A stretch of 64,000 nucleotides of DNA from positions 323,067 through 387,066 of the forward strand of contig JASEGC010000001.1 of the NCBI GenBank assembly GCA_030018415.1. The letters are read 5' to 3'. Origin of the DNA: Candidatus Aenigmatarchaeota archaeon (GTDB taxonomy: Archaea; Aenigmatarchaeota; Aenigmatarchaeia; CG10238-14). The notes beneath the pieces were generated by a model that saw only the letters and a list, made by a program, of their open reading frames with translations, was not told where the DNA came from and did no database searches. A program made the translations under genes and the position numbers. Below are positions 11,143 to 28,278 of the stretch, piece by piece; the stretch's first letter is position 1; the number at the start of each line of letters is the position of its first letter.

Positions 11143-12546
11143 ATGAGAATCCTTTTAGTAAATCCTCCAATGAAACAGGGAGAGATTTATTCCAAATATG
11201 CTAAAGGAGCACCTTGCTTTCCACCATTGGGTTTATGTTATATAGCTTCTATGCTAGAAAAAAATCATAATATCAAAATAATTGATGGGGTCACGGAAAA
11301 ATTAACTTTACAACAACTACGGAATGCTATACAAAAATTTGATCCTGATATTGTTGGTATTACCTCGACTACGGTCAGTTTTCTTAGGGCTGTAGATACA
11401 GCAAAAGTGGTAAAATCGGTTGATAAAGATATAATTGTCATATTGGGTGGTCCTCATGTAAGTGCAATTCCAAAAGAAACTTTTGAAAATTATAAATGTT
11501 TTGATATTGGTGTAGTTGGTGAGGGGGAATATACAATGTTAGATTTGTTGCAAGCAATCGAAAAACAACGTAAGCTTAAAACCATAAGGGGAATCGTATT
11601 TAGAAAAAACAGAAAAATAATTATTACACAAGGAAGAGAGTCGATCAAAAACTTGGATGAGTTGCCATTTCCAGCGAGACACTTACTCCCAAACTTTCCA
11701 GATGTATATAATCCACCACACTATGAAAAGAGATTACCAGTAGCACATATGATTACTAGTAGAGGTTGCCCTTATAGATGCATTTTCTGTACTCAAGCTG
11801 TATTTGGAAGAACTTGGCGTGGGAATTCTCCTAAGTATATGCTGCAAGAAGTAACTCATTTAATTGAGAAGTTTAAGATAAAAGATATATTATTTCAAGA
11901 TGATCTCTTTACATTTTCTCAATTAAGGGTTATGGAATTTTGTGATTTACTAATAAATGAAAATATAGATTTAACATGGAGTTGTTCTACCAGAGTTAAT
12001 CTCGTCAACAAATTATTACTAGAGAAGATGTACAAAGCTGGATGTAGGACGATCTATTATGGAATCGAATCTGGCGATCAAAACATTTTAAATTTTATGA
12101 ATAAAGGTATTACCTTGAAACATGTTATTAAGGTCATAAATTTGACTAAATTATCTGGAATAGAATCTTATGGTTCATTTATATTAGGTTTTCCAACAGA
12201 AACTCCAGAAACCATAGAGAAAACTATAGAATTTGCACTAAAACTTCCCCTAGATGCAGTAAGCTTTCATATAACCGTTCCTTACCCAGGCACAGTATTA
12301 AGTCAGATTGCCAATCAATATGGTACTACATGCAGACCAGATGATTGGAGTCGATATAGAGGACACCCAGATGATCTTGTTTTTATTGCACATGGCTTAA
12401 CTGATAAATTTCTAATTAAAAAACAAAAAGAGGCGTATAGAAGATTTTATTTTAGATTTCCAATGATTCTCAGAAAACTTAAAGAGATTGATAGTTTAGG
12501 AAAGGTCAAGTTATATATTAACGGATTTTTGTCACTCATTTCATAA
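11143..12546 (+). CDS. Cobalamin-binding radical SAM enzyme (class B rSAM, COG1032-like)
   Basis: N-terminal Rossmann-like B12-binding region, then 'SRGCPYRCIFCTQ' CX3CX2C radical SAM motif; 467 aa. Confidence 0.8.
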   Translation: MRILLVNPPMKQGEIYSKYAKGAPCFPPLGLCYIASMLEKNHNIKIIDGVTEKLTLQQLRNAIQKFDPDIVGITSTTVSFLRAVDTAKVVKSVDKDIIVILGGPHVSAIPKETFENYKCFDIGVVGEGEYTMLDLLQAIEKQRKLKTIRGIVFRKNRKIIITQGRESIKNLDELPFPARHLLPNFPDVYNPPHYEKRLPVAHMITSRGCPYRCIFCTQAVFGRTWRGNSPKYMLQEVTHLIEKFKIKDILFQDDLFTFSQLRVMEFCDLLINENIDLTWSCSTRVNLVNKLLLEKMYKAGCRTIYYGIESGDQNILNFMNKGITLKHVIKVINLTKLSGIESYGSFILGFPTETPETIEKTIEFALKLPLDAVSFHITVPYPGTVLSQIANQYGTTCRPDDWSRYRGHPDDLVFIAHGLTDKFLIKKQKEAYRRFYFRFPMILRKLKEIDSLGKVKLYINGFLSLIS

Positions 12547-12549
12547 TAT

Positions 12550-13350
12550 GTGATTTTAATGAGCAGCATTTTCAAGAAAACCGTTGAAAGTTTTGGGTAC
12601 GAATGGCAAAAATTTCCAATACTATATCCAGTATACGAAAGTGAGTTTTTAGAATGGATAAAACCGATCAAACAAGATTTCTTCAAAGATAAACTGGTTC
12701 TTGATGCTGGATGTGGAGGGGGTAGACATAGTTATTTTGCTGCAAAATACGGAACAAAAAAAGTTATAGCCATGGATATAAGCAAGGGCGCTATAAAAGC
12801 GGCCTATAAACTTCTTAAAAATTTTAAAAATGTTAATGTAATTTGTGGTAATATTTGTAATCCACCGTTCAAACAAAAGTTTGATTTTATATATTCCATT
12901 GGTGTGTTACATCACCTTCCAGACCCAGAAAAAGGATTTAAAAACTTGGTTAAATTATTAAAACCAAACGCTACGATTTTTATTTGGGTATATGGTAAAG
13001 AAAACAATTTCGTTTTTGTGAATATGATCGATCCTATAAGAAGGTACCTTACTTCAAGATTACCTCCTAACATACAATACATAATTAGTTTTTTCCTAGG
13101 TGGTTTACTACATCTCACCACAAAAATATACAATATACTTAAGTTCTTACCTTACAGAGACTACTTCTTAAGTATCTCTAGTCACCCATTCAAGTTTAAG
13201 CATTTGACTAGCTTTGATTTCATTTCTGCGCCATCAGTTAAGTTTGTACGGAAAAATGAAATAAGAAAATGGTTTGATGATGCCAATTTTAAAAACATTA
13301 GTATTTTATGGCGTAATCGAAATAGTTGGAAAGGAATTGGTACTAAATAA
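12550..13350 (+). CDS. Class I SAM-dependent methyltransferase
   Basis: 'LVLDAGCGGGRHSYFAAKYG' motif I; 'VLHHLPDPEKGFKNL'. Confidence 0.7.
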   Translation: MILMSSIFKKTVESFGYEWQKFPILYPVYESEFLEWIKPIKQDFFKDKLVLDAGCGGGRHSYFAAKYGTKKVIAMDISKGAIKAAYKLLKNFKNVNVICGNICNPPFKQKFDFIYSIGVLHHLPDPEKGFKNLVKLLKPNATIFIWVYGKENNFVFVNMIDPIRRYLTSRLPPNIQYIISFFLGGLLHLTTKIYNILKFLPYRDYFLSISSHPFKFKHLTSFDFISAPSVKFVRKNEIRKWFDDANFKNISILWRNRNSWKGIGTK

Positions 13351-13355
13351 AAAAG

Positions 13356-15275
13356 GTGTTAAAATTGTGTGGTATCTGTGGAATTGTGGGGTTTGATGAT
13401 AGAACCTTACTTAAAAGAATGTGTAATGTTATTTACCATCGTGGTCCAGACGATTCTGGAATCTTTTTGGATAGAAATATTTGTATGGGCGCTCAATCTT
13501 TGTTTCTAACAAGAAAGATACGTCAGCCAATACGTAACGAAGATGGGTCTTTATGGTTAGTATGCGATGGTACCATTTACAATTTTCAAGAGCTAGTGCG
13601 ATACCTTGAGAGTAGAGGTCATGAGTTTTATACAAACTCCGATATCGAAGTAATTGTGCACCTCTATGAAGAGTTTGGTAATTTTTGTGTCAAAAAAATC
13701 AGGGGAACCTTCGCTTTTGGTATTTGGGATGGAACAAAAAAGAAGCTTTTTTTGGCAAGGGACAGGATAGGAGTAAAGCCATTGTATTACGTAATAATAG
13801 GTAATAATTTTTTGTTCGCTTCAGAAATCAAGTCTCTGTTACAATACGATGAGATAAAGAGAGAAATTGATACGCGAGCACTTCATTATTTTCTAACTTT
13901 TCGTTATGTACCTGGACCTAGAACAATGTTTAAAGGAATTAAGAAATTACAACCTGGCCATAATTTAACTTATAAAAAAGGAAAAGTTAAGATCTCTAAA
14001 TATTGGGATTTGAGCTATTCTCCAATCAAAGAATCGGAAAAATATTACATAGAAAGATTACAAGAACTAATTAAAGAATCTATAGAAATTAGGTTGAGAA
14101 ATGTACCCATAGCTGTTTACTTATCTGGTGGTCTTGATTCTAGTTACGTTACTGGAGTTATAAGCAATTTGGTAGATGAGCCAATAAAAACTTTTAGCGT
14201 CGGCTTTGGAGTCGAAAGGTTCGATGAACTTAAATATGCTAAAGTAATTGCCAATCATTTTAATACAGATCATCATGAGTTTATTATTGAATCAGATGCC
14301 GCAAGGCTTCTTCCAGAAATAATATGGCGTTTTGATGAGCCAATAGCAGATCCAGCGGCGATACCAACGTATTTCATTTCGAAAGAGGCTAAAAATCATG
14401 CAAAGATAATTTTTGGAGCTGAGGGTGGTGATGAGTTGTTTGGTGGCTATGAGCATTGGAAGATTATGCTAATGAGCAGAAAATATTTGAAATTTGTTCC
14501 AAAGGAGGCAATTTTTTGGTTCGCTAATAAGTTACCAAAGTTCTTATTAGATAAATTTTTTATGTACAGTTCTGTTTTAGGGGAAGAAGGGATGAGAAGA
14601 TTTTCAGATTACTTGCTTTCTATGAGCAATATAGGGAAAAGTTATCTTTCAATAATTTCAATTTTTGACGAAAAAGAAAGGAACGAACTTTGTATAAATA
14701 AAACAGGTTTTAAGATAGCCAAAAATCTTAACGACAATTACTTTAAAAATATAGATTCAAACAATCTTTTAAATCACCTGAGTTTATTCGAAATAAAAAC
14801 ACAGATGCCAGACGACCTTGCTATGAAATGGGATAAAATGTTGATGACATTTTCCTTAGAACCAGAACTACCTCTTTTAGATCATAAGCTTATGGAATTT
14901 TCTGCAACAATACCATCTTCTTTTAAGATAAGAGGATTAACAGAAAAATATATATTTCGAAAATTGATGTCTTCCTTTATTCCAAAGGAAATAGTAAAGA
15001 GGAAGAAACAAAGGTTCTTTGTTCCTATAGATTCTTGGATTGAAAAAGATTTATGGGATATAATTTGCCAGATCTTTTCTGAGCAAAATGTTCGCAGTAG
15101 GGGGTACTTTAAATGGAACTATATTTCTCATATTTTCCAAAATTTTGGAAAGTCAAAGTTGTATTATAGTCGTCAACTCTGGAATTTGTTAACTTTCGAA
15201 TTATGGCATAGAATTTTTATAGACAGTGATAATTTACGTAGACCACAATCTATACTTAAAAGGGCATTATTATGA
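13356..15275 (+). CDS. Asparagine synthase (glutamine-hydrolysing)-family amidotransferase
   Basis: 'MCGICGIVGF' Ntn Cys2 start; 'SGGLDSS' PP-loop; 639 aa. Confidence 0.85.
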   Translation: MLKLCGICGIVGFDDRTLLKRMCNVIYHRGPDDSGIFLDRNICMGAQSLFLTRKIRQPIRNEDGSLWLVCDGTIYNFQELVRYLESRGHEFYTNSDIEVIVHLYEEFGNFCVKKIRGTFAFGIWDGTKKKLFLARDRIGVKPLYYVIIGNNFLFASEIKSLLQYDEIKREIDTRALHYFLTFRYVPGPRTMFKGIKKLQPGHNLTYKKGKVKISKYWDLSYSPIKESEKYYIERLQELIKESIEIRLRNVPIAVYLSGGLDSSYVTGVISNLVDEPIKTFSVGFGVERFDELKYAKVIANHFNTDHHEFIIESDAARLLPEIIWRFDEPIADPAAIPTYFISKEAKNHAKIIFGAEGGDELFGGYEHWKIMLMSRKYLKFVPKEAIFWFANKLPKFLLDKFFMYSSVLGEEGMRRFSDYLLSMSNIGKSYLSIISIFDEKERNELCINKTGFKIAKNLNDNYFKNIDSNNLLNHLSLFEIKTQMPDDLAMKWDKMLMTFSLEPELPLLDHKLMEFSATIPSSFKIRGLTEKYIFRKLMSSFIPKEIVKRKKQRFFVPIDSWIEKDLWDIICQIFSEQNVRSRGYFKWNYISHIFQNFGKSKLYYSRQLWNLLTFELWHRIFIDSDNLRRPQSILKRALL

Positions 15276-18823: not shown

Positions 18824-19525
18824 ATGTACAAAGGATTAAAAGTTTCAGTAGTCATACCAGCTTATAACGAAGAAGAAAGTATTTTCAAAACTGTAAAAGA
18901 TTTTTCTCAGCCATGTGTAGATGAGATAATAGTTGTTGATAATAATTGTACGGATAAAACCCCAGAATTAGCAAGGAAAGCCGGTGCAAAGGTAATTAAG
19001 CAACCATTACAAGGTTATGGTTTTGCTATTAGGAAAGGTTTAGAAAAAGCTAAAGGGGATGTGATAATAATCACAGAAGCAGACCAAACTTTTATTGGTA
19101 AAGATGTTTACAAGCTTTTGGCCTATATAGAAGATGCCGACATGGTTTTGGGTACAAGAACTTGTTTACAACTAGTTTCTAAAGATGCAAATATGGGTAG
19201 ATTTTTCCTATGGGGCAACATTTTCATTGCCAAATTAATTCAATTTTTCTATGGAAATGTTCGCCTAACCGATGTTGGTTGTACGATGCGTGCAATAAGA
19301 AAAAAAGCTTTAAAGAAAATTATAAAAAAATTTTTAGTTGGTGGAAGTCATTTTTCACCAGAAATGATAATCGAGGCTTTAAAGGCAAATTTAAAAATTG
19401 TAGAAGTTCCTTTGAATTACAGAAAAAGGATTGGGATTGGGAAAATTACTTCTTCTGGAAAATGGCGAGCATTTAAAGTTGGGTTGAGGATGATTTGGTT
19501 GATTTTCCAAAAAAGATTTTCATAA
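18824..19525 (+). CDS. Glycosyltransferase family 2 (DPM1-like, soluble)
   Basis: 'KVSVVIPAYNEEESI...IIVVDNNCTDKT'. Confidence 0.75.
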   Translation: MYKGLKVSVVIPAYNEEESIFKTVKDFSQPCVDEIIVVDNNCTDKTPELARKAGAKVIKQPLQGYGFAIRKGLEKAKGDVIIITEADQTFIGKDVYKLLAYIEDADMVLGTRTCLQLVSKDANMGRFFLWGNIFIAKLIQFFYGNVRLTDVGCTMRAIRKKALKKIIKKFLVGGSHFSPEMIIEALKANLKIVEVPLNYRKRIGIGKITSSGKWRAFKVGLRMIWLIFQKRFS

Positions 19526-19538
19526 GAAGAATGATATT

Positions 19539-21053
19539 ATGTCTTCAATAAAAAGAATGGTTTCAAACACATTCTACTTATTTCTAAACTTATTCTCTTC
19601 CACACTTCTAAGCATACTTTACTTCATTATTGCAGGAAAATTACTTACACCTTCTGAATACGGCATAGCAAACTCAACCATCCAGTTCGTAGCTCTAATA
19701 ACTGCCTTTTCAACGATCGGGATGACGAACGCGACATTAAAATTAGTTTCAGAATATTTTGCGACGAAAAAAATGAAAAAACTCTATGGCTCTGTCAAAT
19801 ATTGTCTAAAATTTCTTCTCGTAGCGAATATACCAATATCAGTTTTTATCTTCATATTCTCTCCAACCCTAGCCACGTATATTTTTAAAGACCCAAATCT
19901 TGCCCCACCTTTTAGAATATCTGCGTTCATGATCATGGTTTTAACTCTGAGCTCGTACTTTGGTTCAGTCATATACGGACTAGGAAAAGTAAAAATTTAC
20001 TTTTTAACAGATTTTTTGGCAAATGCTACGAAAGTACTATTAGCTGTGATTTTGATAGTATTTCTCAAATTAGGGTTCTGGGGACCTATCATCGGTTATT
20101 TTCTCGGATTAACTTTCTCGACTGTCATGAGGTTTAAAAAAATGGGAATAGAGGATGATGGTGAACCGGATAAAAAAGTTATATGGCAATATGCGCTTCC
20201 TGCCCTAATAACAACAATTTTTGGGACAATACTGACCACAACGCCAGTACTAATCCTTTCTTCTTTTTCTTCGACTACTGAAGCAGGAGTTTTTTCTTTA
20301 GTTAACGCTCTCGCTTCTTTACTCATGTTCATGCCGAACGTTCTCTACACAGCAAGTTTTCCAATATTCTCGGGTATGCACGGGAAGAAAGATCGTTCGG
20401 GGATCGAGAAACTTCTGAATGTAACGTTCAAATATGCTATTCTCATTTCAGTTCCCATATCTTTGGTTTTTATAGTTTTCCCAGAGTTCATGATAAGGCT
20501 GGTTGCAAAGCCTGCTTACCTTCCCGGCGTTACAACGTTATCTGTTCTGGGTATGGTTGGTTTGTTCTGGGGTATAGGAAATATATTACTCAATGCTTTG
20601 TATGCATTAGGCAAACCAAAGATTAACAGGAACATCATGCTAGGAACTTCTATCATTTATCTGATACTCTCTGTTCCTCTATCTATACATTATGCTTCTC
20701 TCGGCATGGCAACAACTTACCTTATAGCCATTTCATTCCTGTTTTTTTCCTCATTCTTTTTCATAAGGAAATTTTACAGGTTACATCTAGATTACAAGTA
20801 TTTAATAAAAATTCTTTCTTCCTCCTTCATCGCTTTGATAATACTGATAACTCTGATGTCTGGAAGCGATTCTGTCTACATGTTTATAATCATTTCTTTA
20901 ATCAGTTTCGCTTTCTACATATTCTTACTCCTCATCTTGAAGACTTTTGATGTGAACGATTTGAAATTCTTGAATGAGTCGAAAAAGATGTCTCCAAAAA
21001 AACTTTTATTCATTTTTGAATTCCTGGAGAAGTTATTAAAGAAGTTTTTGTGA
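19539..21053 (+). CDS. Wzx-like oligosaccharide flippase (MOP superfamily polysaccharide biosynthesis protein)
   Basis: 504 aa with about 12-14 TM helices, typical flippase length and topology. Confidence 0.6.
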   Translation: MSSIKRMVSNTFYLFLNLFSSTLLSILYFIIAGKLLTPSEYGIANSTIQFVALITAFSTIGMTNATLKLVSEYFATKKMKKLYGSVKYCLKFLLVANIPISVFIFIFSPTLATYIFKDPNLAPPFRISAFMIMVLTLSSYFGSVIYGLGKVKIYFLTDFLANATKVLLAVILIVFLKLGFWGPIIGYFLGLTFSTVMRFKKMGIEDDGEPDKKVIWQYALPALITTIFGTILTTTPVLILSSFSSTTEAGVFSLVNALASLLMFMPNVLYTASFPIFSGMHGKKDRSGIEKLLNVTFKYAILISVPISLVFIVFPEFMIRLVAKPAYLPGVTTLSVLGMVGLFWGIGNILLNALYALGKPKINRNIMLGTSIIYLILSVPLSIHYASLGMATTYLIAISFLFFSSFFFIRKFYRLHLDYKYLIKILSSSFIALIILITLMSGSDSVYMFIIISLISFAFYIFLLLILKTFDVNDLKFLNESKKMSPKKLLFIFEFLEKLLKKFL

Positions 21054-21057: not shown

Positions 21058-21459
21058 GTGAAAAAACATGTTCACAGCAAAAAATACGAGAATTTTATCA
21101 AAGGTTTATTGTTGTCTCCGAGCGTTAACTTGGGATGCGGAAGTTTCAAGATAGCAGACGTGAACATAGATGTCGAGGGAACAGTTAGTCCAGATATAAT
21201 ATGGGACTTAAACAAATTTCCATATCCTTTCAGAGAGAAAGTGTACAAAAGTGTTTTGTTGCATCACTCGTTAGAGCACTTAGAGAATCCATATAAAGTT
21301 TTGAGTGAATGTGTTAGAATACTTCAGGACGACGGCAGGATAATAATCGTCGTTCCAAGTCCACAAAATCCAAGATACAGAATGGAAAACCATAAACAAT
21401 TTTTCACCAGGAATTCCCTTAAAAATTTAGTTTCAAAATATTTTTCGAATGTACCATAA
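21058..21459 (+). CDS. SAM-dependent methyltransferase (Methyltransf_11-like), C-terminus truncated by a tandem duplication
   Basis: 'LGCGSFKIADVNIDVEG...LLHHSLEHLENPYKVL...DDGRIIIVVPS'; the stop lies at the junction of the 64-bp duplication. Confidence 0.6.
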   Translation: MKKHVHSKKYENFIKGLLLSPSVNLGCGSFKIADVNIDVEGTVSPDIIWDLNKFPYPFREKVYKSVLLHHSLEHLENPYKVLSECVRILQDDGRIIIVVPSPQNPRYRMENHKQFFTRNSLKNLVSKYFSNVP

Positions 21460-21516
21460 ACAATTTTTCACCAGGAATTCCCTTAAAAATTTAGTTTCAA
21501 AATATTTTTCGAATGT
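21389..21516. repeat. Perfect 64-bp tandem duplication (2 copies)
   Basis: Copy 1 at 21389-21452 and copy 2 at 21453-21516 are identical ('accataaacaatttttcaccaggaattcccttaaaaatttagtttcaaaatatttttcgaatgt'). Confidence 0.9.
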
Positions 21517-21637
21517 AAGAGTTTTTGGTTACAGAGGAGACACAAAAAATTTTCCAATAATAATCTGTAAACTCTTAGGAATATTCGTGCCAAATCAATT
21601 TATATGTATCGCTTCAAAAACTTGATAAAGTGATGAA

Positions 21638-23107
21638 ATGAAAATACTACTTTTGAACCCATCATTCTTACCAAGATACACAAGAGCTTCGCGCAGCCCA
21701 TGCGTGGCACGAGGAGGTACTTTTTACTATCCTTATTTTTTGGCTTATGCCTGCGGGGTTTTAGAGAAAAATGGTTTTGACGGTAAAGTTAAGCTAGTAG
21801 ATGCTGTTGCTAATGAATGGGATCATAAAAAAACCGTAAGGTTTGTTAAATTTTTTGCTCCAAATTTAGTTGTTATTGATACGTCTACACCGAGCATATA
21901 CAATGACATAGAAGTTGCAACAAAGATTAAAAAAGCTTTACCAAAGGTTCACATCAACTTAGTTGGTACTCATCCTACAAGAGTAACAGATGAAACTTTT
22001 GGTTTGTCTAAAGCTATAGATTCAATCTGTAGAGACGAGTATGATTATACTTTAGTCGATTTAGCTAAAGCTATAGAAAAAGGTAAACCTTTAAAAGGAA
22101 TAAAAGGACTTTCCTTCAGGAAAGATGGAAAAATTATTCACAATGAACCGAGGGAAAGAATTAAAAATTTAGATGAACTACCATTTGTCTCAGAAGTCTA
22201 CGAAAAACACTTTGGAATAGGAGGAATTAAAAGATATTTCTATGCTTCTTTAAAACATCCACAAGTAACAATTTTAACAGCCAGAGGATGTCCTTTCAAC
22301 TGCTTATTTTGTAATATACCGTTCAAAGCTTCCTATAGGGCGAGATCTCCCAAAAATGTAATCGAAGAATTTGAGTATATCCAAACTGAATTGCCAGAAG
22401 TTAATGAAGTGATGATAGAAGACGACACCTTTCCTATATCAAAAGAAAGAACTTTGAAGGTTTGCAAGCTTTTGAAAGAAAGAGGAATTAAATTGACATG
22501 GTCCTGTAACGCAAGAGTAAACACCGATTTGGAAACTTTGAAAGCCATGAAAGAAAGTGGTTGTCGTTTGCTTTGTGTTGGTTTTGAGTCCCCAGTTCAA
22601 TCAGTTTTGGATGAAGTACACAAAAAAACAACTGCTGAAATGCAAATCAAGTTCATGAATGATTGTAGAAAAGTTGGTTTATTGGTTAACGGTTGTTTTA
22701 TCCTTGGGATGCCTGGAGATACGAAAGAAACTATAAGAGAAACGATAGAGTTTGCGAAAAAACTAAATCCAGATACAGCACAATTCTACTCGGCTTACGC
22801 TTATCCTGGAACAGAGATGTGGGATTGGGCAAAAGAAAACGGTTATTTAACTTCAGAGAGGTATGACGCTTTGCTAACAGAAGAAGGTTATCATAAAGGA
22901 AACATTAATCTTCCTGATCTACCGGCTGAGGAAGTTGATAGATTATGCAGAGAAGCTCTAAAGGAGTTCTATCTCAGGAAAGATTACATATTTTATAAGC
23001 TTAGTCAAATCATTACCAATTTTGATGAAGCCAGAAGGACATTGATGTCAGGAAGGTTTTTTTTCAAGCATATACTCCTACCACAACCACAGGCAGCATC
23101 TCCTTAA
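21638..23107 (+). CDS. Cobalamin-binding radical SAM enzyme (paralog 2)
   Basis: 489 aa; 'ARGCPFNCLFCNIP'; near-identical N-terminus to 26806-28278 ('LLLNPSFLPRYTRASRSPCVARGGTFY'). Confidence 0.8.
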   Translation: MKILLLNPSFLPRYTRASRSPCVARGGTFYYPYFLAYACGVLEKNGFDGKVKLVDAVANEWDHKKTVRFVKFFAPNLVVIDTSTPSIYNDIEVATKIKKALPKVHINLVGTHPTRVTDETFGLSKAIDSICRDEYDYTLVDLAKAIEKGKPLKGIKGLSFRKDGKIIHNEPRERIKNLDELPFVSEVYEKHFGIGGIKRYFYASLKHPQVTILTARGCPFNCLFCNIPFKASYRARSPKNVIEEFEYIQTELPEVNEVMIEDDTFPISKERTLKVCKLLKERGIKLTWSCNARVNTDLETLKAMKESGCRLLCVGFESPVQSVLDEVHKKTTAEMQIKFMNDCRKVGLLVNGCFILGMPGDTKETIRETIEFAKKLNPDTAQFYSAYAYPGTEMWDWAKENGYLTSERYDALLTEEGYHKGNINLPDLPAEEVDRLCREALKEFYLRKDYIFYKLSQIITNFDEARRTLMSGRFFFKHILLPQPQAASP

Positions 23108-23135: not shown

Positions 23136-24128
23136 TTGAAGAAAATGTTATCAGTCATAATCCCAGCTTACAACGCAGAAAAAACGATTGCTTCTACTAT
23201 TAAGGCTTTACTAGATCAGAATTACCCAAAAAATAAATATGAAATAATAATCGTTGACGATGGGTCTGTTGACAAAACAGTTGAAGTTGCTTCCCAGTTT
23301 CCAGTAAAAGTCATAAAGTTGAAACATAATGGTCCAGCCCATGCAAGGAACATGGGAGCAAAAAAAGCCAAGGGTAGTATTATTCTCTTCACAGACTCTG
23401 ATTGCATTCCCGATAAGAATTGGATTAGAGAAATGATAAAACCCCTTAAAAATTCTGGGGTCGTTGGAGTATCAGGGACTTACAAGACCTTGAATCAAGA
23501 TAAACTCATGGCAAGGTTTATTGGATATGAGATCGAGCAAAGACATGATAACATGAAAAAACTTAAGTATATCGATTTCGTGGGAACTTTCAGTGCCGCT
23601 TACAAAAAAGATATCTTCCTTAAGTTCGGTGGTTTTGATGAAAGGTTTAAAAAAGCTTCTGGTGAAGATCCTGAGTTATCGTTTAGGATTTCGAAAGCAA
23701 GCTTAAAGATGGTTTTTAATCCCAAAGCCTTTGTTTATCATCCCCACATCGATTCGTTCTGGAAATACCTAAAATGGAAATACGAAAGAGCTGTATGGAG
23801 AAACTTGATGTACTGGGAAAAACACAAAGAAAAAGTTTTTTCAGATAGTTATACTCCTAGGATGTTGTTACCACAAATTCTTTTATCTGGTTTGGTCGTT
23901 TTAGCATCTTTGATACCGATTCTACTCGGGCAAATATCTCTTATCTTCATTCCCCTTGTTCTACTCTTGGTTATAGCTTTCATTTTCAACTTAGATGTTA
24001 TCGTCTTTATTTGGAGAAGGGAAAAAAAGTTAGCCGTATTATCTCCGCTCGTATTTTTCTTCAGGAATATTTCTGTATTGGTAGGAGTAATCGTGGGAGT
24101 TTTAAAATTTTTATTCAAGAAGTTTTAA
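23136..24128 (+). CDS. Glycosyltransferase family 2 with C-terminal TM domain
   Basis: 'LSVIIPAYNAEKTI...IIIVDDGSVDKT...FTDSDC'; paralog of 25806-26801. Confidence 0.75.
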   Translation: MKKMLSVIIPAYNAEKTIASTIKALLDQNYPKNKYEIIIVDDGSVDKTVEVASQFPVKVIKLKHNGPAHARNMGAKKAKGSIILFTDSDCIPDKNWIREMIKPLKNSGVVGVSGTYKTLNQDKLMARFIGYEIEQRHDNMKKLKYIDFVGTFSAAYKKDIFLKFGGFDERFKKASGEDPELSFRISKASLKMVFNPKAFVYHPHIDSFWKYLKWKYERAVWRNLMYWEKHKEKVFSDSYTPRMLLPQILLSGLVVLASLIPILLGQISLIFIPLVLLLVIAFIFNLDVIVFIWRREKKLAVLSPLVFFFRNISVLVGVIVGVLKFLFKKF

Positions 24129-24159
24129 CAAACTTTGATTGTACTGAAAGGATGTTTAC

Positions 24160-25773
24160 TTAAACTATCTCATAAATGATATTTCCATCACAACCTCCTT
24201 GTTGTAAGCATTGTTCCAAAGATGGCCCATTTTCGTATATCTTTTTAAAGTGTTGTGGGTTGTCTTCTAAGAATTTTACAAAATCGATGTCATAATTTTC
24301 TGAAAAGTGCTGATTTCTATAGTCGATGCTGAACTTTTGAATGAATATATGAGTGATTCCATGTTGCTTCGCCACATCTACAGTATAGTTAACATCCCTA
24401 CTCAGAGCTATGTCAGGGATTGTACCTGTTCCCACAGCATTCCTTTGGCAGTTATACAAAGCTCTCCAGCCCCAAACAGTGTATAAGGAGACATTTTTAG
24501 GAGTGTTTTCCTTCACCCAGTTGCATGCCTCGAAGAAGATAGGTGAGAATTGTTTGACTCTAAACATCACATCGAGTTTTGATCTGACATTCTGATAACT
24601 GAAGAAAAATATAGCGAGAAAAACTACAAGTGCAATGTATTTTTGGTAGTTCTTTAAAAAATTATACAGTTCTGCAAAATAAACACCAGATACTAAGGCA
24701 AATACAGGGACCCAACCTAGAGTATTTCTGGCTGTGTCTTCAGCTCTATCAGTTGAGAAATAAAACATGACAAAAAACAGTAAGAGATAAATTGCGATGT
24801 AACTAGTTACATATCTCCTCTTTGAAAATAAAATTATTAATCCGCTAAAAGTACCTAATAAAATCAACCATATGTTACCGTAGGCGAAATCTAAATAGTT
24901 AACAATGCCCATACTATAAACACTTTGTTCTGTACCTACTTGTTCTACTCGACCAGCGAAATGATATTTTTCCTCGAATTCATCCGTGGAACATTTGCTG
25001 TTATCAAAAATATTTATGAGTGGTAAATCACGACAAAGTGGGTTGTTGAAATAGTAAATATTTCTTATGAGAAAAGTGCTTGGTATTAAAATAAGAATTG
25101 ATAGTAATATGGTGTATTTTTTAATGATGTTTGAGAACTTCTTTTTTATCATCAATTCGTAAAGAAGCCCGATCAAAACGAAAGGGTAGATTGCTAAACC
25201 AGATATATCAGTTAAGAAGGCAAGGCCACCAAAAATACCAGCTAAAATCAAAATTTTTTTGTTATCATCCTTCATCGCGATAAGAAACAAAAGAAAAAAT
25301 AGAGTAACATACAATGTATACAAAGTATCCGTATAAAACAAGACAGAGTAAGTAACAAGGGAAGGTATGGTCACTGAGAAAATAGCTGCGATAAGGCCAA
25401 CTTTTTCATTCCAAATTTTTTTGGTTAGCAGGTAGACGACTATACCGATTAAAAAAGTAGTGAATGGGGTTAAAAATTTAATTATACTATCTTCATGACC
25501 CAAAAGAAGAAAGAAACTCCCTTCCAACAAGTTAAACAAAGGAGGTCTTACGAACCCACCATAATTGAGTTTTGTTTCCCCCATTCCAGTTAAAACGGGG
25601 TATTCAACTTCTTCAGCCATATACTGGGCCATTCTGGTATGAAACCCTTCATCTCCAAAAGCTATAGGAGAGTTGAAAGTAACTTGCAACTTTAAAACCA
25701 GTATAATCGAAAGAAAAACCAATAAAATAATTATTTCCGGCCTTTTAATTTCAATCGTTATTTCCTTTTCCAT
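24160..25773 (-). CDS. Polytopic membrane protein (putative GT-C glycosyltransferase) with C-terminal extracytoplasmic domain
   Basis: 537 aa, more than 10 TM segments; lies between the two rSAM/GT2 modules. Confidence 0.4.
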   Translation of the reverse strand: MEKEITIEIKRPEIIILLVFLSIILVLKLQVTFNSPIAFGDEGFHTRMAQYMAEEVEYPVLTGMGETKLNYGGFVRPPLFNLLEGSFFLLLGHEDSIIKFLTPFTTFLIGIVVYLLTKKIWNEKVGLIAAIFSVTIPSLVTYSVLFYTDTLYTLYVTLFFLLFLIAMKDDNKKILILAGIFGGLAFLTDISGLAIYPFVLIGLLYELMIKKKFSNIIKKYTILLSILILIPSTFLIRNIYYFNNPLCRDLPLINIFDNSKCSTDEFEEKYHFAGRVEQVGTEQSVYSMGIVNYLDFAYGNIWLILLGTFSGLIILFSKRRYVTSYIAIYLLLFFVMFYFSTDRAEDTARNTLGWVPVFALVSGVYFAELYNFLKNYQKYIALVVFLAIFFFSYQNVRSKLDVMFRVKQFSPIFFEACNWVKENTPKNVSLYTVWGWRALYNCQRNAVGTGTIPDIALSRDVNYTVDVAKQHGITHIFIQKFSIDYRNQHFSENYDIDFVKFLEDNPQHFKKIYENGPSLEQCLQQGGCDGNIIYEIV

Positions 25774-25805
25774 GCTTCCACTTCTAATGAATTTTAAAAA
25801 TACAG

Positions 25806-26801
25806 TTATACTAATTTATCTCTTATGAAACTTAATAAACCAAACAACAACCCGCTTGCCCACACGAATCCCCTTATAAAAAATAAGAATGCAATAAGAA
25901 TAGCAACTTTGTAATCCTTTTTTTTCAACGGAATTACAGTAGCTGGTATATGGATGATTAAAAGCACAAATGAAAAAACGAGAAATAAGAATTTTGAAAT
26001 TAAAAGAGAGAACGGAAGTAAAATATACAAGAACGGTTGAATTAAGGTTGTTATTCCTGCGTATTCATCCCCTTTCATAAATTCAGGTCTTCTTAGGTAG
26101 AGGAGAACTCTCCAGAAAGCATGATTAAATTGTTTTTTGAAGTATTCTACCAGAGATTCAGGATGCTTATGCCACACGTATGTATTCTTCAAGAAAATCA
26201 GATGGTATCCACTCTTTATTATTCTATAGCTTAAGTCGTTATCTTCTGCAGATGCAGTTTTAAAACTAGTATCGAACCCTTTCAACTTCTCAAGAATATC
26301 ACGTCGATAAGCAGTGCTATAACTGGCTAAAAAATTTGTTTTTTCACTGATCTTATTATGTCTTTGTTCTATTTCATATCCAACAAACCTAGCAATCCAG
26401 GAATTTTTATTCCATGTTTGGTACTTTACGCCCACACCAGCGACTTTTTCATTCTCGAATGGTTTTAGTATGTTTTTTAACCAATTCTTCCCGACTTTAC
26501 AATCAGAATCAAGAAAGATTACTATTTTCCCTCTAGCTTTTTTCCATCCGAGGTTTCTAGCTTCGGCTGGGCCTTTGTGTCTTTGTTTTACTAGTTTTAT
26601 CGGATAATTCTTCACTATTCTCAGCGTATTATCTTTGCTTCCATCATCGATAACGATTATTTCCACTTTCTCCCTGAATTTCTTTCTTTGTTTTAATAAA
26701 GAGTCTAAGACTTCTCTTATCGTGCTTTCAGAATTATAAGTCGGGATAACTATTGATATCATTAATCTTAAATAACTATTCAAAATATTTGTTTTTATCA
26801 T
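25806..26801 (-). CDS. Glycosyltransferase family 2 with C-terminal TM domain
   Basis: 'ISIVIPTYNSESTI...IIVIDDGSKDNT...FLDSDC'; likely true start at the internal 'MISIVIPTYN'. Confidence 0.75.
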   Translation of the reverse strand: MIKTNILNSYLRLMISIVIPTYNSESTIREVLDSLLKQRKKFREKVEIIVIDDGSKDNTLRIVKNYPIKLVKQRHKGPAEARNLGWKKARGKIVIFLDSDCKVGKNWLKNILKPFENEKVAGVGVKYQTWNKNSWIARFVGYEIEQRHNKISEKTNFLASYSTAYRRDILEKLKGFDTSFKTASAEDNDLSYRIIKSGYHLIFLKNTYVWHKHPESLVEYFKKQFNHAFWRVLLYLRRPEFMKGDEYAGITTLIQPFLYILLPFSLLISKFLFLVFSFVLLIIHIPATVIPLKKKDYKVAILIAFLFFIRGFVWASGLLFGLLSFIRDKLV

Positions 26802-26805
26802 AAGA

Positions 26806-28278
26806 GTGGTATCAATGAGAATCTTATTACTTAACCCACCTTTTTTACCGAGATACTCTAGACAGAGTAGATCGCCTTGTGTGAGTAAAGGTGGTACCTT
26901 CTATTTGCCATATTATTTGGCATATGCGGCAGGAGCTTTGGAGAAATCAGGATTTTCTGATATTAAGCTCATGGATGCTATAGCAAAGAATTGGTCTCGT
27001 AAAGAAACGATAAATTTTATCAAGTCCTTTAATCCAGATTTGATAATTGTTGATACAAGTACTCCAAGCATCCATAATGATGTCGAAGTTGCAGCTGAGA
27101 TAAAAAAAGCTTTACCAAATTCTCATGTTAACCTAGTTGGGACCCATCTAACCAGAAAAACAGAAGAAACTTTTGGTTTATCAGAAGCTATAGATTCAAT
27201 TTGTAGAGGAGAATATGATTTTACCTTAGTTGAGCTAGCCGAAGCTATAGAAAGTGAAAAACCTCTAAGAGAGATTGAAGGCTTATCTTTCAGAGAAGAT
27301 GGGAAAATTTTTCATAATCCTGAAAGACCATTGCTTACTTCAAAAGAATTGGATGAATTACCGTTTGTTTCTGAAGTCTATAAAAAACACTTGAACATAT
27401 GGGATTACTTTTATGCGTCTCTACTCTACCCACAAGTCACCATCTTAACTGCAAGAGGATGTCCGTTTAGTTGTAGCTTCTGTAACATACCTTTCAAAAA
27501 TTCTTACAGACCTAGAAGTCCAGAGAATGTGGTTGATGAATTTGAATACATTCAAGATGAATTACCGGAAGTAAGAGAAGTTATGATAGAGGACGATACT
27601 TTTCCAGTTTCAAAGAGAAGAACCATCGAAATTTCTGATTTGTTGATTAAAAGGAAAATAAAGATTTCTTGGTCATGTAATGCAAGAGTCGATACAGATT
27701 ACGAAACTTTGAAAAGAATGAAAGATGCTGGTTGCAGGCTATTATGCGTGGGGTTCGAGAGTCCTGTTCAAAAAACTCTAAACACTGTTCATAAAAAAAC
27801 AACTGCTAGAATGCAATTAGAGTTTATGAAGAATTGCAACAAACTTGGTTTACTGGTTAATGGGTGTTTTATTCTTGGCTTACCAGGAGATACAGAGGAA
27901 ACTATAAAAGAAACGATAGAATTTGCAAAAAAACTTAATCCTGATACTGTTCAATTCTATCCTCTTTTCTTATACCCAGGAACGGAAGCCTGGGATTGGG
28001 CAGAAGAAAATGGGTATCTTGCCAGCAAAGATTACTCAGCTTTGTTAACTAGAGAAGGTAAACACTTAAGTAATGCAGATTTACCTGGTTTAAACCATCT
28101 AAGGGCTACTTATCTTTGTGATAAGGCATTGAGAGAGTTCTACCTTCGACCAAAATACATTTTTTACAAACTCTTTCAGATTCTTTCCAACTTAGGAGAA
28201 GCTCAAAGGACTTTTCTTTCAGCAAAAATTTTCTTCAAGAACTTAATTTCTCCTTCCGTCCAACAAGCGTCTCTTTAA
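26806..28278 (+). CDS. Cobalamin-binding radical SAM enzyme (paralog 3)
   Basis: 490 aa; 'ARGCPFSCSFCNIP'; likely true start at 'MRILLLNPP'. Confidence 0.8.
   Translation: MVSMRILLLNPPFLPRYSRQSRSPCVSKGGTFYLPYYLAYAAGALEKSGFSDIKLMDAIAKNWSRKETINFIKSFNPDLIIVDTSTPSIHNDVEVAAEIKKALPNSHVNLVGTHLTRKTEETFGLSEAIDSICRGEYDFTLVELAEAIESEKPLREIEGLSFREDGKIFHNPERPLLTSKELDELPFVSEVYKKHLNIWDYFYASLLYPQVTILTARGCPFSCSFCNIPFKNSYRPRSPENVVDEFEYIQDELPEVREVMIEDDTFPVSKRRTIEISDLLIKRKIKISWSCNARVDTDYETLKRMKDAGCRLLCVGFESPVQKTLNTVHKKTTARMQLEFMKNCNKLGLLVNGCFILGLPGDTEETIKETIEFAKKLNPDTVQFYPLFLYPGTEAWDWAEENGYLASKDYSALLTREGKHLSNADLPGLNHLRATYLCDKALREFYLRPKYIFYKLFQILSNLGEAQRTFLSAKIFFKNLISPSVQQASL

What the first reader, a model, noticed from the sequence alone, without database searches (positions are those of the whole stretch)
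11143..28278. Three paralogous cobalamin-dependent radical SAM enzymes embedded in the glycosylation island
ORFs 11143-12546, 21638-23107 and 26806-28278 each combine an N-terminal B12-binding Rossmann domain with a CX3CX2C radical SAM core (CPYRCIFC / CPFNCLFC / CPFSCSFC). Paralogs 2 and 3 are about 70% identical at the N-terminus. Class B rSAM enzymes typically C-methylate unactivated carbons (sugars, isoprenoid lipids). Their co-localisation with AglB and glycosyltransferases is not part of any characterised archaeal Agl pathway. They could modify sugar units or the dolichol carrier, and this is the most likely undescribed system in the window.
Basis: partly seen in the sequence, partly recalled or inferred. 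Interest (0 to 1): 0.8.

Follow-up and report, generated by a model that had tools for sequence, protein, structure and literature searches.

The report
Radical enzymes paired with sugar transferases
Three radical SAM enzymes sit in the surface-sugar gene island of a small DPANN archaeon; two belong to a large unstudied family whose only studied relative (HpnJ) contracts the ring of a lipid-bound sugar, and each is paired with its own membrane sugar-transferase, which points to an undescribed way of tailoring cell-surface sugars.

Summary
All three ORFs encode an N-terminal B12-type Rossmann domain followed by a CX3CX2C radical SAM barrel. They fall into two families, not one.

rSAM2 and rSAM3 are 68% identical. 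They belong to a large family found in DPANN and other archaea and in many anaerobic bacteria: more than 4000 protein clusters and 306 species genomes. In a tree this family joins the hopanoid enzyme HpnJ in 100 of 100 bootstraps. It scores 369-432 bits on the HpnJ model, against a cutoff of 577.6 and 842 bits for true HpnJ. No hpnI or hpnK orthologue, and none of the LPG-synthase-like gene that flanks both hpn clusters examined, was found; SHC and hpnH were not searched for.

In 65 of 80 genome loci the enzyme lies within 3 kb of a membrane-embedded GT2. In Aenigmarchaeota-type loci a small methyltransferase, a PMT_2 GT-C transferase and a Wzx flippase often join it. The window holds two such cassettes.

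rSAM1 is 33% identical to the other two. It has its own conserved partners, a class-I methyltransferase and an AsnB-like amidotransferase.

Best reading: HpnI/HpnJ-like tailoring, on the cytoplasmic face, of a GT2-installed, lipid-anchored sugar. The chemistry is unproven and could be ring rearrangement or C-methylation. This is a new variant of a known kind, and interest is moderate to high.

The parts
21638..23107 (+). rSAM2: HpnJ-like radical SAM enzyme with a B12-type domain (489 aa, CPFNCLFC)
   Evidence: On TIGR03471 HpnJ it scores 431.6 bits against a cutoff of 577.6. AF2 model and Foldseek matches. Placed in the HpnJ-containing clade. It is 100% identical to a protein of a Candidatus Aenigmarchaeota MAG on a 610-kb contig.
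23136..24128 (+). GT2a: membrane-embedded family-2 glycosyltransferase, the dedicated partner of rSAM2
   Evidence: Pfam GT2, Glyco_tranf_2_3 and GT21 hits. C-terminal hydrophobic helices at about 242-327. AF2 model with pLDDT 91. Best PDB matches are PcManGT of Pyrobaculum and the hyaluronan and cellulose synthases. Orthologues lie directly next to the rSAM in most loci.
24160..25773 (-). PMT_2-type GT-C glycosyltransferase lying between the two cassettes
   Evidence: PF13231 at 52.9 bits and multiple predicted TM segments. Orthologues scoring 255-543 bits occur in four other independent Aenigmarchaeota-type loci: L003 (L004 repeats that locus), L005, L007, L032.
25806..26801 (-). GT2b: second membrane GT2, partner of rSAM3 and transcribed divergently from it (probable start at 26762)
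   Evidence: It is only 37.6% identical to GT2a. This and rSAM2 being closer to L007's rSAM than to rSAM3 suggest the two cassettes are old and distinct.
26806..28278 (+). rSAM3: second HpnJ-like radical SAM enzyme (CPFSCSFC; probable start at ATG 26815)
   Evidence: (HpnJ model 412.0 bits).
21058..21459 (+). Small class-I SAM methyltransferase just upstream of rSAM2, truncated by a frameshift
   Evidence: Methyltransf_11 and Methyltransf_23 hits. Orthologues of 176-187 aa sit directly upstream of the rSAM in L003 and L005. Removing one copy of the 64-bp repeat restores a 169-aa ORF.
21389..21517 (.). Perfect 64-bp tandem duplication (2 copies) that frameshifts the methyltransferase gene
28684..29199 (-). 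Small class-I SAM methyltransferase downstream of rSAM3
   Evidence: Related to the cassette methyltransferases of L003 and L005.
19539..21053 (+). Wzx-type flippase upstream of cassette 1
   Evidence: Polysacc_synt and MatE hits. A Wzx gene lies next to the cassette in L003, L005, L007 and L032.
11143..12546 (+). rSAM1: B12-domain radical SAM enzyme of a different clade (467 aa, CPYRCIFC)
   Evidence: No NCBIfam model comes near its cutoff (HpnJ 234, ApyD 219, BchE 208). It is 33% identical to rSAM2/3 and falls in a separate clade with 93% bootstrap.
12550..13350 (+). Class-I SAM methyltransferase, conserved partner of rSAM1
   Evidence: Orthologues lie next to rSAM1 orthologues in L090 (41% identity) and L091 (36%).
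13356..15275 (+). AsnB-like glutamine amidotransferase, partner of rSAM1
   Evidence: Asn_synthase and GATase hits. TIGR01536 scores 461 bits. A 41%-identical orthologue lies directly upstream of the rSAM1 orthologue in L091.
31616..33811 (+). STT3/AglB oligosaccharyltransferase at the end of the island
   Evidence: PF02516 at 77.4 bits, 731 aa.

Best explanation
rSAM2 and rSAM3 are each half of a two-gene cassette. The other half is a dedicated membrane-embedded GT2 (GT2a, GT2b). The cassettes work inside a surface-glycan assembly island.

Proposed sequence:
1. On the cytoplasmic face, the GT2 transfers a sugar from an NDP-sugar onto a lipid-anchored acceptor. The acceptor could be a dolichol-linked oligosaccharide or a glycolipid.
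2. The soluble radical SAM enzyme reductively cleaves SAM at its CX3CX2C [4Fe-4S] cluster and abstracts a hydrogen from that sugar.
3. By analogy with its sister enzyme HpnJ, it then rearranges the sugar skeleton rather than methylating it. The HpnJ reaction is ring contraction of a glycoside to an ether-linked carbocycle.
4. The small class-I methyltransferase then O-methylates the product.
5. Wzx flips the intermediate, and PMT_2 GT-C enzymes and AglB finish and transfer the glycan outside.

Shown here: domain architecture and fold, the clade shared with HpnJ, non-membership of HpnJ proper, the conserved rSAM-GT2 (plus MTase, PMT_2, Wzx) linkage, and the absence of TM segments in the rSAM.

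Inferred: order of action, substrate, chemistry and cobalamin use.

rSAM1 is a separate class-B-type enzyme that works with its own methyltransferase and an AsnB-like amidotransferase. It probably acts on another residue of the same glycan.
For: Family placement.
- TIGR03471 HpnJ is by far the best model for rSAM2/3 (431.6 and 412.0 bits, full length). BchE comes next at 179-190 bits, and methylase models score 137 or less.
- True HpnJ is 39.5% identical to rSAM2.
- In an NJ tree, family plus HpnJ form a clade in 100 of 100 bootstraps, separate from the rSAM1 family and BchE. The family alone is monophyletic in only 64 of 100, so HpnJ may be an offshoot of it.
- The family and HpnJ share the TSTPS motif, a G[TA] replacement of the canonical GG(x)H motif, and an N-terminal S-R loop that the rSAM1 family and BchE lack.

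Gene context.
- A GT2a/b-type GT2 lies within 3 kb of the rSAM in 22 of 30 archaeal and 43 of 50 bacterial genome loci, usually directly adjacent. The same holds in all 4 independent metagenome loci examined.
- hpnJ is followed directly by hpnI in Paraburkholderia, the same rSAM-then-GT2 order.
- In L003 the order is Alg14-Alg13-MTase-rSAM-GT2a-Wzx-(PMT_2), which places the cassette in lipid-linked oligosaccharide assembly.

The GT2 partner. Its model (pLDDT 91) best matches the membrane GT2 PcManGT and the hyaluronan and cellulose synthases.

Location. The rSAM proteins have no predicted TM segment.

Literature. Loss of hpnJ abolishes BHT cyclitol ether while BHT glucosamine persists. HpnJ is listed among the few non-methylating cobalamin-type radical SAM enzymes (PMC13459092, PMC9092360, PMC13598231, PMC12583986).
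Against: - HpnJ's own chemistry rests on genetics only. No in vitro data exist (PMC9092360).
- At 39% identity and 146-208 bits below the HpnJ cutoff, function could have diverged.
- The partner GT2 is not an HpnI orthologue: 34 bits against a cutoff of 310, and no BLASTP hit.
- No HpnK-type deacetylase occurs in any locus, so the substrate cannot be the same.
- Contigs such as L003 carry six B12-type rSAM genes, each beside a GT. That pattern looks more like repeated tailoring, for example methylation, than ring contraction.
- A ring-contracted residue has no anomeric centre. It could therefore only be a terminal or reducing-end unit.
- Cobalamin binding is unproven. PF02310 is weak in rSAM2/3, and the best structural match, AprD4, binds no cobalamin to my knowledge.
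Confidence: 0.4

Rival explanations
1. rSAM2/3, and rSAM1, are classical class B methylases. They use methylcobalamin plus a 5'-deoxyadenosyl radical to C-methylate an unactivated carbon of a sugar in the lipid-linked glycan.
For: - The architecture is that of the methylase-dominated class B.
- Most cobalamin-type radical SAM enzymes are annotated as methylases (PMC13459092).
- Some loci carry up to six such enzymes, one beside each GT, as expected for repeated tailoring.
- Anammox bacteria carry the family (L072, L074, L078, L079). The Kuenenia S-layer O-glycan has up to five methyl groups on six sugars. The methyls were located by mass only, so C- versus O-methyl is unresolved (PMC5088730).
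- From my own knowledge, MoeK5 is a precedent for a B12-radical SAM enzyme C-methylating a lipid-linked sugar in moenomycin.
Against: - Every curated methylase model scores far below its cutoff and far below HpnJ: PhpK 135-157 against 600, KedN5 54-102 against 700, HpnR 90-112 against 650, GenK-like models absent.
- The two nearest characterised relatives of rSAM2/3, HpnJ and BchE, are both non-methylating.
- A separate class-I methyltransferase is already part of the cassette.
- The canonical GG(x)H motif of the B12 domain is altered in the family and in HpnJ.
Confidence: 0.3
2. Other radical sugar chemistry on the same substrate. Examples are AprD4-like 1,2-diol dehydration or deoxygenation, epimerisation, or C-C bond formation. 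The N-terminal domain would serve a structural role and bind no cobalamin.
For: AprD4, a radical SAM diol dehydratase solved with its aminoglycoside sugar substrate paromamine, is the best match both by sequence (90 bits) and by fold (TM 0.72/0.77). PF02310 is at or below threshold in rSAM2.
Against: The sequence match to AprD4 covers only the radical SAM core (residues 207-425). The N-terminal domain aligns instead with the cobalamin binders CysS, TokK and OxsB. The NCBIfam AprD4 model scores only 71-84 bits against a cutoff of 500.
Confidence: 0.12
3. The radical SAM enzyme acts before transfer. It converts an NDP-sugar, such as an NDP-heptose or NDP-hexose, into an unusual donor that only the adjacent GT2 accepts.
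For: Tight rSAM-GT2 linkage is equally expected if the GT must recognise a rare donor. Heptose-nucleotide pathway genes (GHMP kinase, SIS isomerase, HAD/NTP-transferase) lie within 6 kb (about 10 kb in L002 and L087) in 10 of about 82 loci from four phyla. NDP-sugar epimerase/dehydratase genes often follow the rSAM in Chloroflexota loci.
Against: The sister enzyme HpnJ acts after glycosyl transfer, because the hpnJ mutant keeps BHT-glucosamine. The window holds no heptose pathway genes.
Confidence: 0.1
4. The target is the lipid, not the sugar: the dolichol carrier or an archaeol/GDGT chain.
For: Many lipid-modifying archaeal enzymes are B12-type radical SAM proteins, including GrsA/B and Hgm/Gmm.
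Against: The same cassette occurs in archaea and in at least ten bacterial phyla. By general knowledge these use different carrier and membrane lipids (not tested here), yet the partner is always a GT2. NCBIfam lipid-enzyme models score low: ladderane 85-137 against 360, HpnR 90-112 against 650.
Confidence: 0.04

Closest known systems
HpnJ (with HpnI and HpnK): bacteriohopanetetrol cyclitol ether synthesis in hopanoid-producing bacteria
   Same: - Same two-domain architecture.
- 36.6-39.5% identity over the full length (HpnJ versus rSAM3 and rSAM2).
- A joint clade with 100% bootstrap support.
- Shared TSTPS, G[TA] and N-terminal loop motifs.
- The gene lies directly beside a membrane GT2, in the same rSAM-then-GT2 order as in Paraburkholderia.

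   Different: - Scores are 369-432 bits against a cutoff of 577.6. True HpnJ scores 842-843.
- The partner GT2 is not HpnI.
- No HpnK deacetylase or LPG-synthase-like gene was found in any locus searched.
- Hosts include DPANN archaea and Dehalococcoidia. The loci examined show glycan genes and no hpnI, hpnK or LPG-synthase-like gene; whether these hosts make hopanoids was not checked.
- The genomic context is glycan assembly (Wzx, GT-C, AglB), not hopanoid synthesis.
Calditol synthase Cds (Saci_1489) of Sulfolobus acidocaldarius
   Same: It is an archaeal radical SAM enzyme proposed to contract a lipid-bound hexose to an ether-linked cyclopentane polyol. The glycosyltransfer step comes first (PMC13459092, PMC9092360). 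This is the nearest archaeal analogue of the proposed mechanism.
   Different: Sequence relatedness could not be tested. Neither the Cds sequence nor the 2018 paper was available. Cds homologues are reported mainly from acidic habitats (PMC13459092). The family here comes from groundwater, sediment, gut and anammox organisms.
AprD4 (PDB 6fd2), radical SAM 1,2-diol dehydratase of apramycin biosynthesis
   Same: It is the best solved-structure match by sequence and by fold. It acts on a sugar ring.
   Different: Identity is only 20%. The sequence match is limited to the radical SAM core. The NCBIfam AprD4 model scores 71-84 bits against a cutoff of 500.
Class B radical SAM methylases (TokK, CysS, TsrM, MgmA, GenK, MoeK5) and the ring-contracting OxsB
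   Same: Same overall fold of a B12 Rossmann domain plus a radical SAM barrel, with TM-scores of 0.63-0.70. From my own knowledge, GenK and MoeK5 methylate sugars.
   Different: Identity is 14-19%. All curated family models score far below their cutoffs. None is known to be paired with a GT2.
PcManGT (PDB 6yv7), the membrane GT2 of Pyrobaculum calidifontis (for GT2a/GT2b)
   Same: It is the best structural match to GT2a: a membrane GT2 with C-terminal TM helices, which I take to be a minimal cellulose-synthase-like fold (my own knowledge of PcManGT).
   Different: Identity is 17%. No radical SAM partner is described for it.

Membership tests
Radical SAM superfamily | A CX3CX2C motif that ligates the [4Fe-4S] cluster, within a PF04055 partial TIM barrel | tested here: met
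   Each protein has one motif. PF04055 scores 78-89 bits against a cutoff of 29.5. The barrel is present in the AF2 model.
Class B (cobalamin-dependent) radical SAM enzymes | An N-terminal B12-binding Rossmann domain (PF02310) | tested here: met
   rSAM1 scores 78.2 and rSAM3 39.2. rSAM2 scores 31.6, just under the 32.1 cutoff. The fold is confirmed for rSAM2, with top PDB matches TsrM, CysS, OxsB, TokK and MgmA. The N-terminal domain aligns with CysS, TokK and OxsB.
Class B (cobalamin-dependent) radical SAM enzymes | Actual binding of cobalamin and dependence on it | not testable with these tools
   There is no DxHxxG motif; to my knowledge class B enzymes do not use it. The GG(x)H motif reads VGTH in rSAM2/3 and VGA in HpnJ. 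AprD4, the best structural match, shows that the fold alone does not prove binding (my own knowledge).
HpnJ (NCBIfam TIGR03471, equivalog) | A score at or above the curated cutoff of 577.6 bits | tested here: not met
   rSAM2 scores 431.6, rSAM3 412.0 and rSAM1 233.8. As a positive control, two true HpnJ proteins score 841.8 and 843.2. Five other family members score 369-414.
HpnJ (NCBIfam TIGR03471, equivalog) | Occurs together with hpnI and hpnK in genomes that make hopanoids (SHC, HpnH) | tested here: not met
   GT2b scores 34 bits on HpnI against a cutoff of 310, and GT2a does not hit it at E <= 1e-5. No HpnK or LPG-synthase-like homologue occurs in the window or in 87 of the 91 loci then held (the four reference loci L088, L092, L093, L094 were left out). 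The literature reports HpnI and HpnJ only in genomes that also have SHC and HpnH (PMC12324291).
HpnJ-like clade (broader than the equivalog) | Groups with HpnJ and apart from other B12-type radical SAM enzymes, and is adjacent to a membrane GT2 | tested here: met
   The joint clade appears in 100 of 100 bootstraps. GT2 adjacency holds in 65 of 80 genome loci. hpnJ is followed by hpnI in Paraburkholderia graminis.
HpnJ-like clade (broader than the equivalog) | Ring contraction of a lipid-bound glycoside to a cyclitol ether | not testable with these tools
   Even for HpnJ this is known only from genetics.
Class B C-methyltransferases (PhpK, KedN5, HpnR, RiPP C-MT, Mmp10/MgmA and similar models) | A score at or above the cutoff of any curated methylase family | tested here: not met
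   The best methylase-type scores are 99.7-162 bits against cutoffs of 281.85-700.
BchE (the name JGI gives to rSAM1 homologues) | A TIGR02026 score of at least 481.35 bits, and a bacteriochlorophyll gene context | tested here: not met
   rSAM1 scores 207.8 bits. Its neighbours are a methyltransferase, AsnB and GT genes, with no bch genes. The JGI 'BchE' names are over-annotation.
Calditol synthase (Cds) | Sequence homology to Saci_1489 | not tested
   The sequence and the paper were unavailable.
Archaeal N-glycosylation (Agl) island | An AglB/STT3 oligosaccharyltransferase together with GTs and a flippase in one locus | tested here: met
   STT3 at 31616-33811, Wzx at 19539-21053, Alg14/Alg13 at 2353-3305, and an AglJ-like GT2 at 18824-19525.

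The most novel reading that the evidence does not exclude
HpnJ would be only the hopanoid-specific offshoot of a much larger and older glycoside-to-carbocycle system. On this reading, the rSAM-GT2 cassettes of DPANN archaea, Hydrothermarchaeota, Dehalococcoidia, anammox Planctomycetota, Gastranaerophilales, Lawsonia and others install ether-linked cyclitol (carba-sugar) units. These units would be calditol-like or BHT-cyclitol-ether-like and resistant to glycosidases and acid. They would sit in surface glycans or lipid head groups. That chemistry is so far known only from Sulfolobales lipids and hopanoids.
Probability: 0.25. Interest if true: 0.8.

Novelty: new variant of a known kind. Interest (0 to 1): 0.55.

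Why it matters
Databases label these proteins only as 'radical SAM protein', or wrongly as 'BchE' or 'YgiQ'. This analysis shows three things.

- A family of thousands of proteins forms one clade with HpnJ.
- The family is almost always paired with a dedicated membrane GT2.
- It sits in surface-glycan clusters of organisms about whose envelopes little appears to be known: genome-reduced DPANN archaea, Dehalococcoidia, anammox bacteria and the intracellular pathogen Lawsonia.

This gives a concrete two-gene unit to express and test. If the chemistry resembles HpnJ, carbocyclic sugar units would be far more widespread than thought. HpnJ and Cds, neither of which has been reconstituted in vitro, would also gain many alternative model enzymes. 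If the chemistry is C-methylation, it would be a new class of glycan tailoring that mass spectrometry would currently misread as O-methylation. Either outcome bears on how DPANN cells, which are reported to live attached to hosts, build their surface.

Tried and rejected
- The Cds comparison failed. The 2018 calditol synthase paper is not held, by DOI or by PMC id. 'Saci_1489' occurs in one review only. No Cds sequence was obtainable.
- The afdb50 fold library was unavailable, so annotated AlphaFold neighbours could not be ranked.
- Literature searches for radical SAM with AglB, or B12-radical SAM with DPANN and glycosyltransferase, or cobalamin radical SAM with C-methylation and polysaccharide, returned nothing relevant.
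- Searches for HpnK, HpnI and the LPG-synthase-like hpn neighbour in 87 of the 91 loci then held (the four reference loci left out) and the window gave only two faint HpnI hits, in L064 and L073. A full hpnIJK-type operon is therefore rejected.
- I tested whether GT2a is a Dol-P-sugar synthase of the DPMS/GtrB/ArnC type. Those models score 23-43 bits by sequence. The fold search favours PcManGT and the hyaluronan and cellulose synthases instead. The ArnC-like and AglJ-like GT2s of the island are other genes, at 8932-9870 and 18824-19525.
- I tested whether the island is a composite transposon. The three transposase genes share no repeats.
- A cobalamin riboswitch or other RNA element was sought. 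Only tRNAs were found.
- The first tree script timed out and was re-run with a faster distance method.
- No auxiliary Fe-S motif is conserved. Only the three cluster cysteines are invariant across the family plus HpnJ.

Full report
OBSERVATION. The three ORFs are at the stated coordinates on the + strand. Their translations each contain a single CX3CX2C motif: CPYRCIFC, CPFNCLFC and CPFSCSFC. Pfam finds Radical_SAM at 78-89 bits in all three. The B12-binding domain scores 78.2 bits in rSAM1 (11143-12546) and 39.2 in rSAM3 (26806-28278). In rSAM2 (21638-23107) it scores 31.6, just below the 32.1 cutoff. rSAM2 and rSAM3 are 67.6% identical over 490 residues. rSAM1 is 33-34% identical to either. 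At the DNA level only rSAM2 and rSAM3 resemble each other, at 74-77% in two segments. No DxHxxG motif is present. From my own knowledge, class B enzymes do not use that His-on motif. The probable true start of rSAM3 is the ATG at 26815. NCBI's protein for the second family member on this contig (P0022, assumed to be rSAM3) is 487 aa.

SOURCE AND SETTING. rSAM2 is 100% identical to a protein of a 'Candidatus Aenigmarchaeota archaeon' MAG on a 610-kb contig. The host is therefore a DPANN archaeon. The genes lie in a glycosylation island spanning about 228-33811. In order, the island holds:
- GT4, Alg14/Alg13, a methyltransferase, GT2, PMT_2 GT-C, GT4, an epimerase and an ArnC-like GT2
- a transposase
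- rSAM1, a methyltransferase and an AsnB-like amidotransferase
- PMT_2, a 12-TM protein with no family match, an AglJ-like GT2 and Wzx
- a methyltransferase, rSAM2 and GT2a
- PMT_2 and GT2b on the minus strand
- rSAM3, then a methyltransferase on the minus strand
- a GT1 fragment, an IS element and STT3/AglB

CLASSIFICATION. Against NCBIfam, rSAM2 and rSAM3 match the HpnJ equivalog over their full length at 431.6 and 412.0 bits. BchE comes next at 179-190 bits. All methylase families score 99.7-137 bits against cutoffs of 281.85-700. The HpnJ cutoff is 577.6. As a positive control, two annotated HpnJ proteins from Mycetohabitans and Paraburkholderia plasmids score 842-843 bits. Five other members of the window's family, from Lawsonia, Dehalococcoidales, Halanaerobacter, Thermococci and Scalindua, score 369-414. 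The family is therefore clearly outside HpnJ proper but nearest to it.

A neighbour-joining tree was built from 39 sequences and 478 columns, with BchE as outgroup. It recovers the clade (family + HpnJ) in 100 of 100 bootstraps and HpnJ alone in 100 of 100. The rSAM1 family is recovered in 93 of 100. The rSAM2/3 family without HpnJ is recovered in only 64 of 100, so HpnJ may branch from within it. The family and HpnJ share the TSTPS motif and a G[TA] in place of the GG(x)H motif seen in rSAM1 and BchE. They also share an N-terminal S-R-containing loop. rSAM2 is closer to an orthologue in another Aenigmarchaeota MAG (78%) than to rSAM3. GT2a and GT2b are only 37.6% identical. The two cassettes are therefore old and distinct.

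STRUCTURE. The AlphaFold2 model of rSAM2 (pLDDT 82.8, pTM 0.84) shows a Rossmann domain at residues 3-132 followed by a partial TIM barrel. Foldseek against the PDB ranks AprD4 first (TM 0.72/0.77), then TsrM, CysS, OxsB, MgmA and TokK. By sequence, AprD4 matches only the radical SAM core. The N-terminal domain aligns with the cobalamin binders CysS, TokK and OxsB. Cobalamin binding itself cannot be tested here.

DISTRIBUTION AND CONTEXT. The family is large. More than 4000 90%-identity clusters were found, and archaeal members are 59-85% identical to rSAM2. A scan of one genome per species found it in 306 species. At 50-78% identity these are Aenigmat-, Pace-, Micr- and Iainarchaeota, Hydrothermarchaeota and Thermococci. 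At 45-50% they are Dehalococcoidia, Planctomycetota including anammox lineages, Gastranaerophilales, Omnitrophota, Desulfobacterales and others. The one named, DSM-deposited strain among the 80 loci listed is Halanaerobacter jeridensis DSM 23230. Lawsonia intracellularis plasmid 1 also carries a member, at 44.5% identity, annotated only as 'radical SAM protein'.

In every metagenome contig I examined, the gene is followed directly by a GT2 of about 316-330 aa of the same type. Across the 80 genome loci, a GT2a/b-type GT2 lies within 3 kb in 22 of 30 archaeal and 43 of 50 bacterial loci. It is directly downstream in 27 of them. In 22 it is directly upstream; these are mostly Dehalococcoidia, where the GT2 is more divergent. 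Several of the remaining loci are contigs that end next to the rSAM.

In Aenigmarchaeota-type loci a small class-I methyltransferase sits directly upstream (L003, L005, L007, L013, L028). An orthologue of the window's PMT_2 GT-C gene (255-543 bits) and a Wzx gene lie nearby (L003, L005, L007, L032). L003 reads Alg14-Alg13-MTase-rSAM-GT2a-Wzx-(PMT_2).

GT2a has C-terminal hydrophobic helices. Its model (pLDDT 91) best matches the membrane GT2 PcManGT of Pyrobaculum and the hyaluronan and cellulose synthases. It does not best match the DPMS/GtrB type. It is not an HpnI orthologue. No HpnK-like deacetylase occurs in any locus. In Paraburkholderia graminis, hpnJ is followed directly by hpnI, the same gene order as in the cassette.

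rSAM1. No curated family comes near its cutoff: HpnJ 234, ApyD 219, BchE 208. Homologues are 40-63% identical, and JGI often mislabels them as BchE. Its two closest contextualised orthologues (50-51% identity) keep the same partners. These are a 260-293-aa class-I methyltransferase (36-41% identical to the gene at 12550-13350) and, in L091, an AsnB-like amidotransferase (41% identical to the gene at 13356-15275). More distant rSAM1-like genes sit beside GT4 or GT1 genes in many loci, up to six per 21 kb in L003.

MECHANISM. Shown here:
- the architecture and fold
- the clade shared with HpnJ, and non-membership of HpnJ proper
- the conserved rSAM-GT2 coupling, with methyltransferase, PMT_2 and Wzx in archaeal loci
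- the absence of TM segments in the rSAM

Established knowledge. Radical SAM enzymes need cytoplasmic SAM and reductant. Loss of hpnJ abolishes BHT cyclitol ether while BHT-glucosamine remains, so HpnJ acts after HpnI (PMC13459092, PMC9092360, PMC12583986). HpnJ and BchE are among the few non-methylating cobalamin-type radical SAM enzymes (PMC13598231).

Inference. GT2a and GT2b each add a sugar to a lipid-anchored acceptor on the cytoplasmic face. rSAM2 and rSAM3 then abstract a hydrogen from that sugar and rearrange it in the manner of HpnJ. The methyltransferase caps it. Wzx flips the intermediate, and GT-C enzymes and AglB complete the glycan. I put this at 0.4.

The rivals are:
- C-methylation, at 0.3. 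It is favoured by the class's general bias and by loci with many such enzymes. The nearest relatives are non-methylating, and all methylase models score low, which counts against it.
- Other radical chemistry such as AprD4-like dehydration, at 0.12.
- Action on an NDP-sugar before transfer, at 0.1. Heptose-pathway genes lie nearby in 10 of about 82 loci.
- Action on the lipid, at 0.04. Conservation across domains with different lipids counts against it.

COMPARISON AND NOVELTY. The closest known system is HpnI/HpnJ(/HpnK). The nearest archaeal analogue in function is calditol synthase, whose sequence I could not obtain. I found no paper describing radical SAM enzymes in archaeal Agl clusters or DPANN glycan clusters. 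These are new members of a known superfamily, in a conserved but undescribed pairing and pathway context. I rate this a new variant of a known kind. The chemistry and the cobalamin dependence remain unproven.

DEAD ENDS. These are listed under 'tried and rejected'. The main ones are:
- the afdb50 library was unavailable
- the first tree script timed out
- no IS-derived repeats flank the island
- no riboswitch was found

Noticed in passing
window 21389-21517: A perfect 64-bp tandem duplication (2 copies, 100% identical) lies inside the small methyltransferase gene upstream of rSAM2. It shifts the frame and ends the ORF at 21459. Deleting one copy restores a 169-aa ORF of the length seen in orthologues. 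It is either a recent inactivating mutation or an assembly artefact.
   Followed up: yes
L002, L011, L033, L038, L039, L041, L047, L066, L070, L087 (not in the window): Genes of a nucleotide-heptose pathway (GHMP kinase, SIS isomerase, HAD/NTP-transferase) lie within 6 kb (about 10 kb in L002 and L087) of the HpnJ-like rSAM in 10 of about 82 loci from four phyla. One of these is the 27-kb Lawsonia intracellularis plasmid 1. In some lineages the tailored sugar may be a heptose.
   Followed up: partly
L003/L004 (342-kb and 281-kb metagenome contigs), 1-21458: Six B12-domain radical SAM genes occur within 21 kb, each directly beside a glycosyltransferase (GT2, GT4, PMT_2, Alg13/14). There is also a stand-alone 142-aa B12-binding domain ORF. 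This is an unusually dense pattern of one radical enzyme per transferase.
   Followed up: partly
L087 (Lawsonia intracellularis plasmid 1) 9001-15611: The family member is followed by five class-I methyltransferase genes and a second, unrelated radical SAM gene. All lie on a small plasmid of an obligate intracellular pathogen, and the rSAM genes are annotated only generically.
   Followed up: no
window 58110-58235 (-): Rfam reports a tRNA of 126 nt (39.1 bits) that ARAGORN does not call. It is probably an intron-containing archaeal tRNA. Two ordinary tRNAs lie at 41005-41075 (Val) and 57744-57829 (Leu).
   Followed up: no
window 25806-26815: As called, GT2b (minus strand) and rSAM3 (plus strand) start only 4 bp apart. 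Using the likely true starts (GT2b Met14 at 26762, rSAM3 ATG at 26815) leaves a 52-bp divergent intergenic region that must hold both promoters.
   Followed up: partly
window 29550-30260 (-) and 30544-31386 (+); also 1327-1728 (-) and 9931-11109 (+): The GT1 ORF keeps only the C-terminal Glycos_transf_1 domain and abuts an IS (DDE_Tnp_1) transposase, so it is probably truncated by insertion. Two further transposase genes or fragments lie in the island, one directly upstream of rSAM1. They share no repeats with one another.
   Followed up: partly
window 16922-18805 (+): A 627-aa protein with about 12 predicted TM segments has no Pfam or NCBIfam match. It lies between a PMT_2 GT-C gene and an AglJ-like GT2. 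It may be an unrecognised GT-C enzyme or a polymerase.
   Followed up: no
window 2353-3305 (+): An Alg14-like and Alg13-like (Glyco_tran_28_C) gene pair is present. It resembles the two-part enzyme that makes the chitobiose core of eukaryotic and crenarchaeal N-glycans. The same pair sits directly upstream of the cassette in L003.
   Followed up: no
L002 7296-8267, L089 9410-10309, L088 8186-9247, L093 6602-7654: An LPG_synthase_TM (PF03706) membrane protein follows hpnK or hpnI in both hopanoid clusters examined. It also appears near B12-rSAM/GT2 genes in two archaeal contigs. phmmer with the hpn-cluster proteins found no homologue in any locus searched, L002 and L089 included. The two links rest on Pfam annotation alone.
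   Followed up: partly
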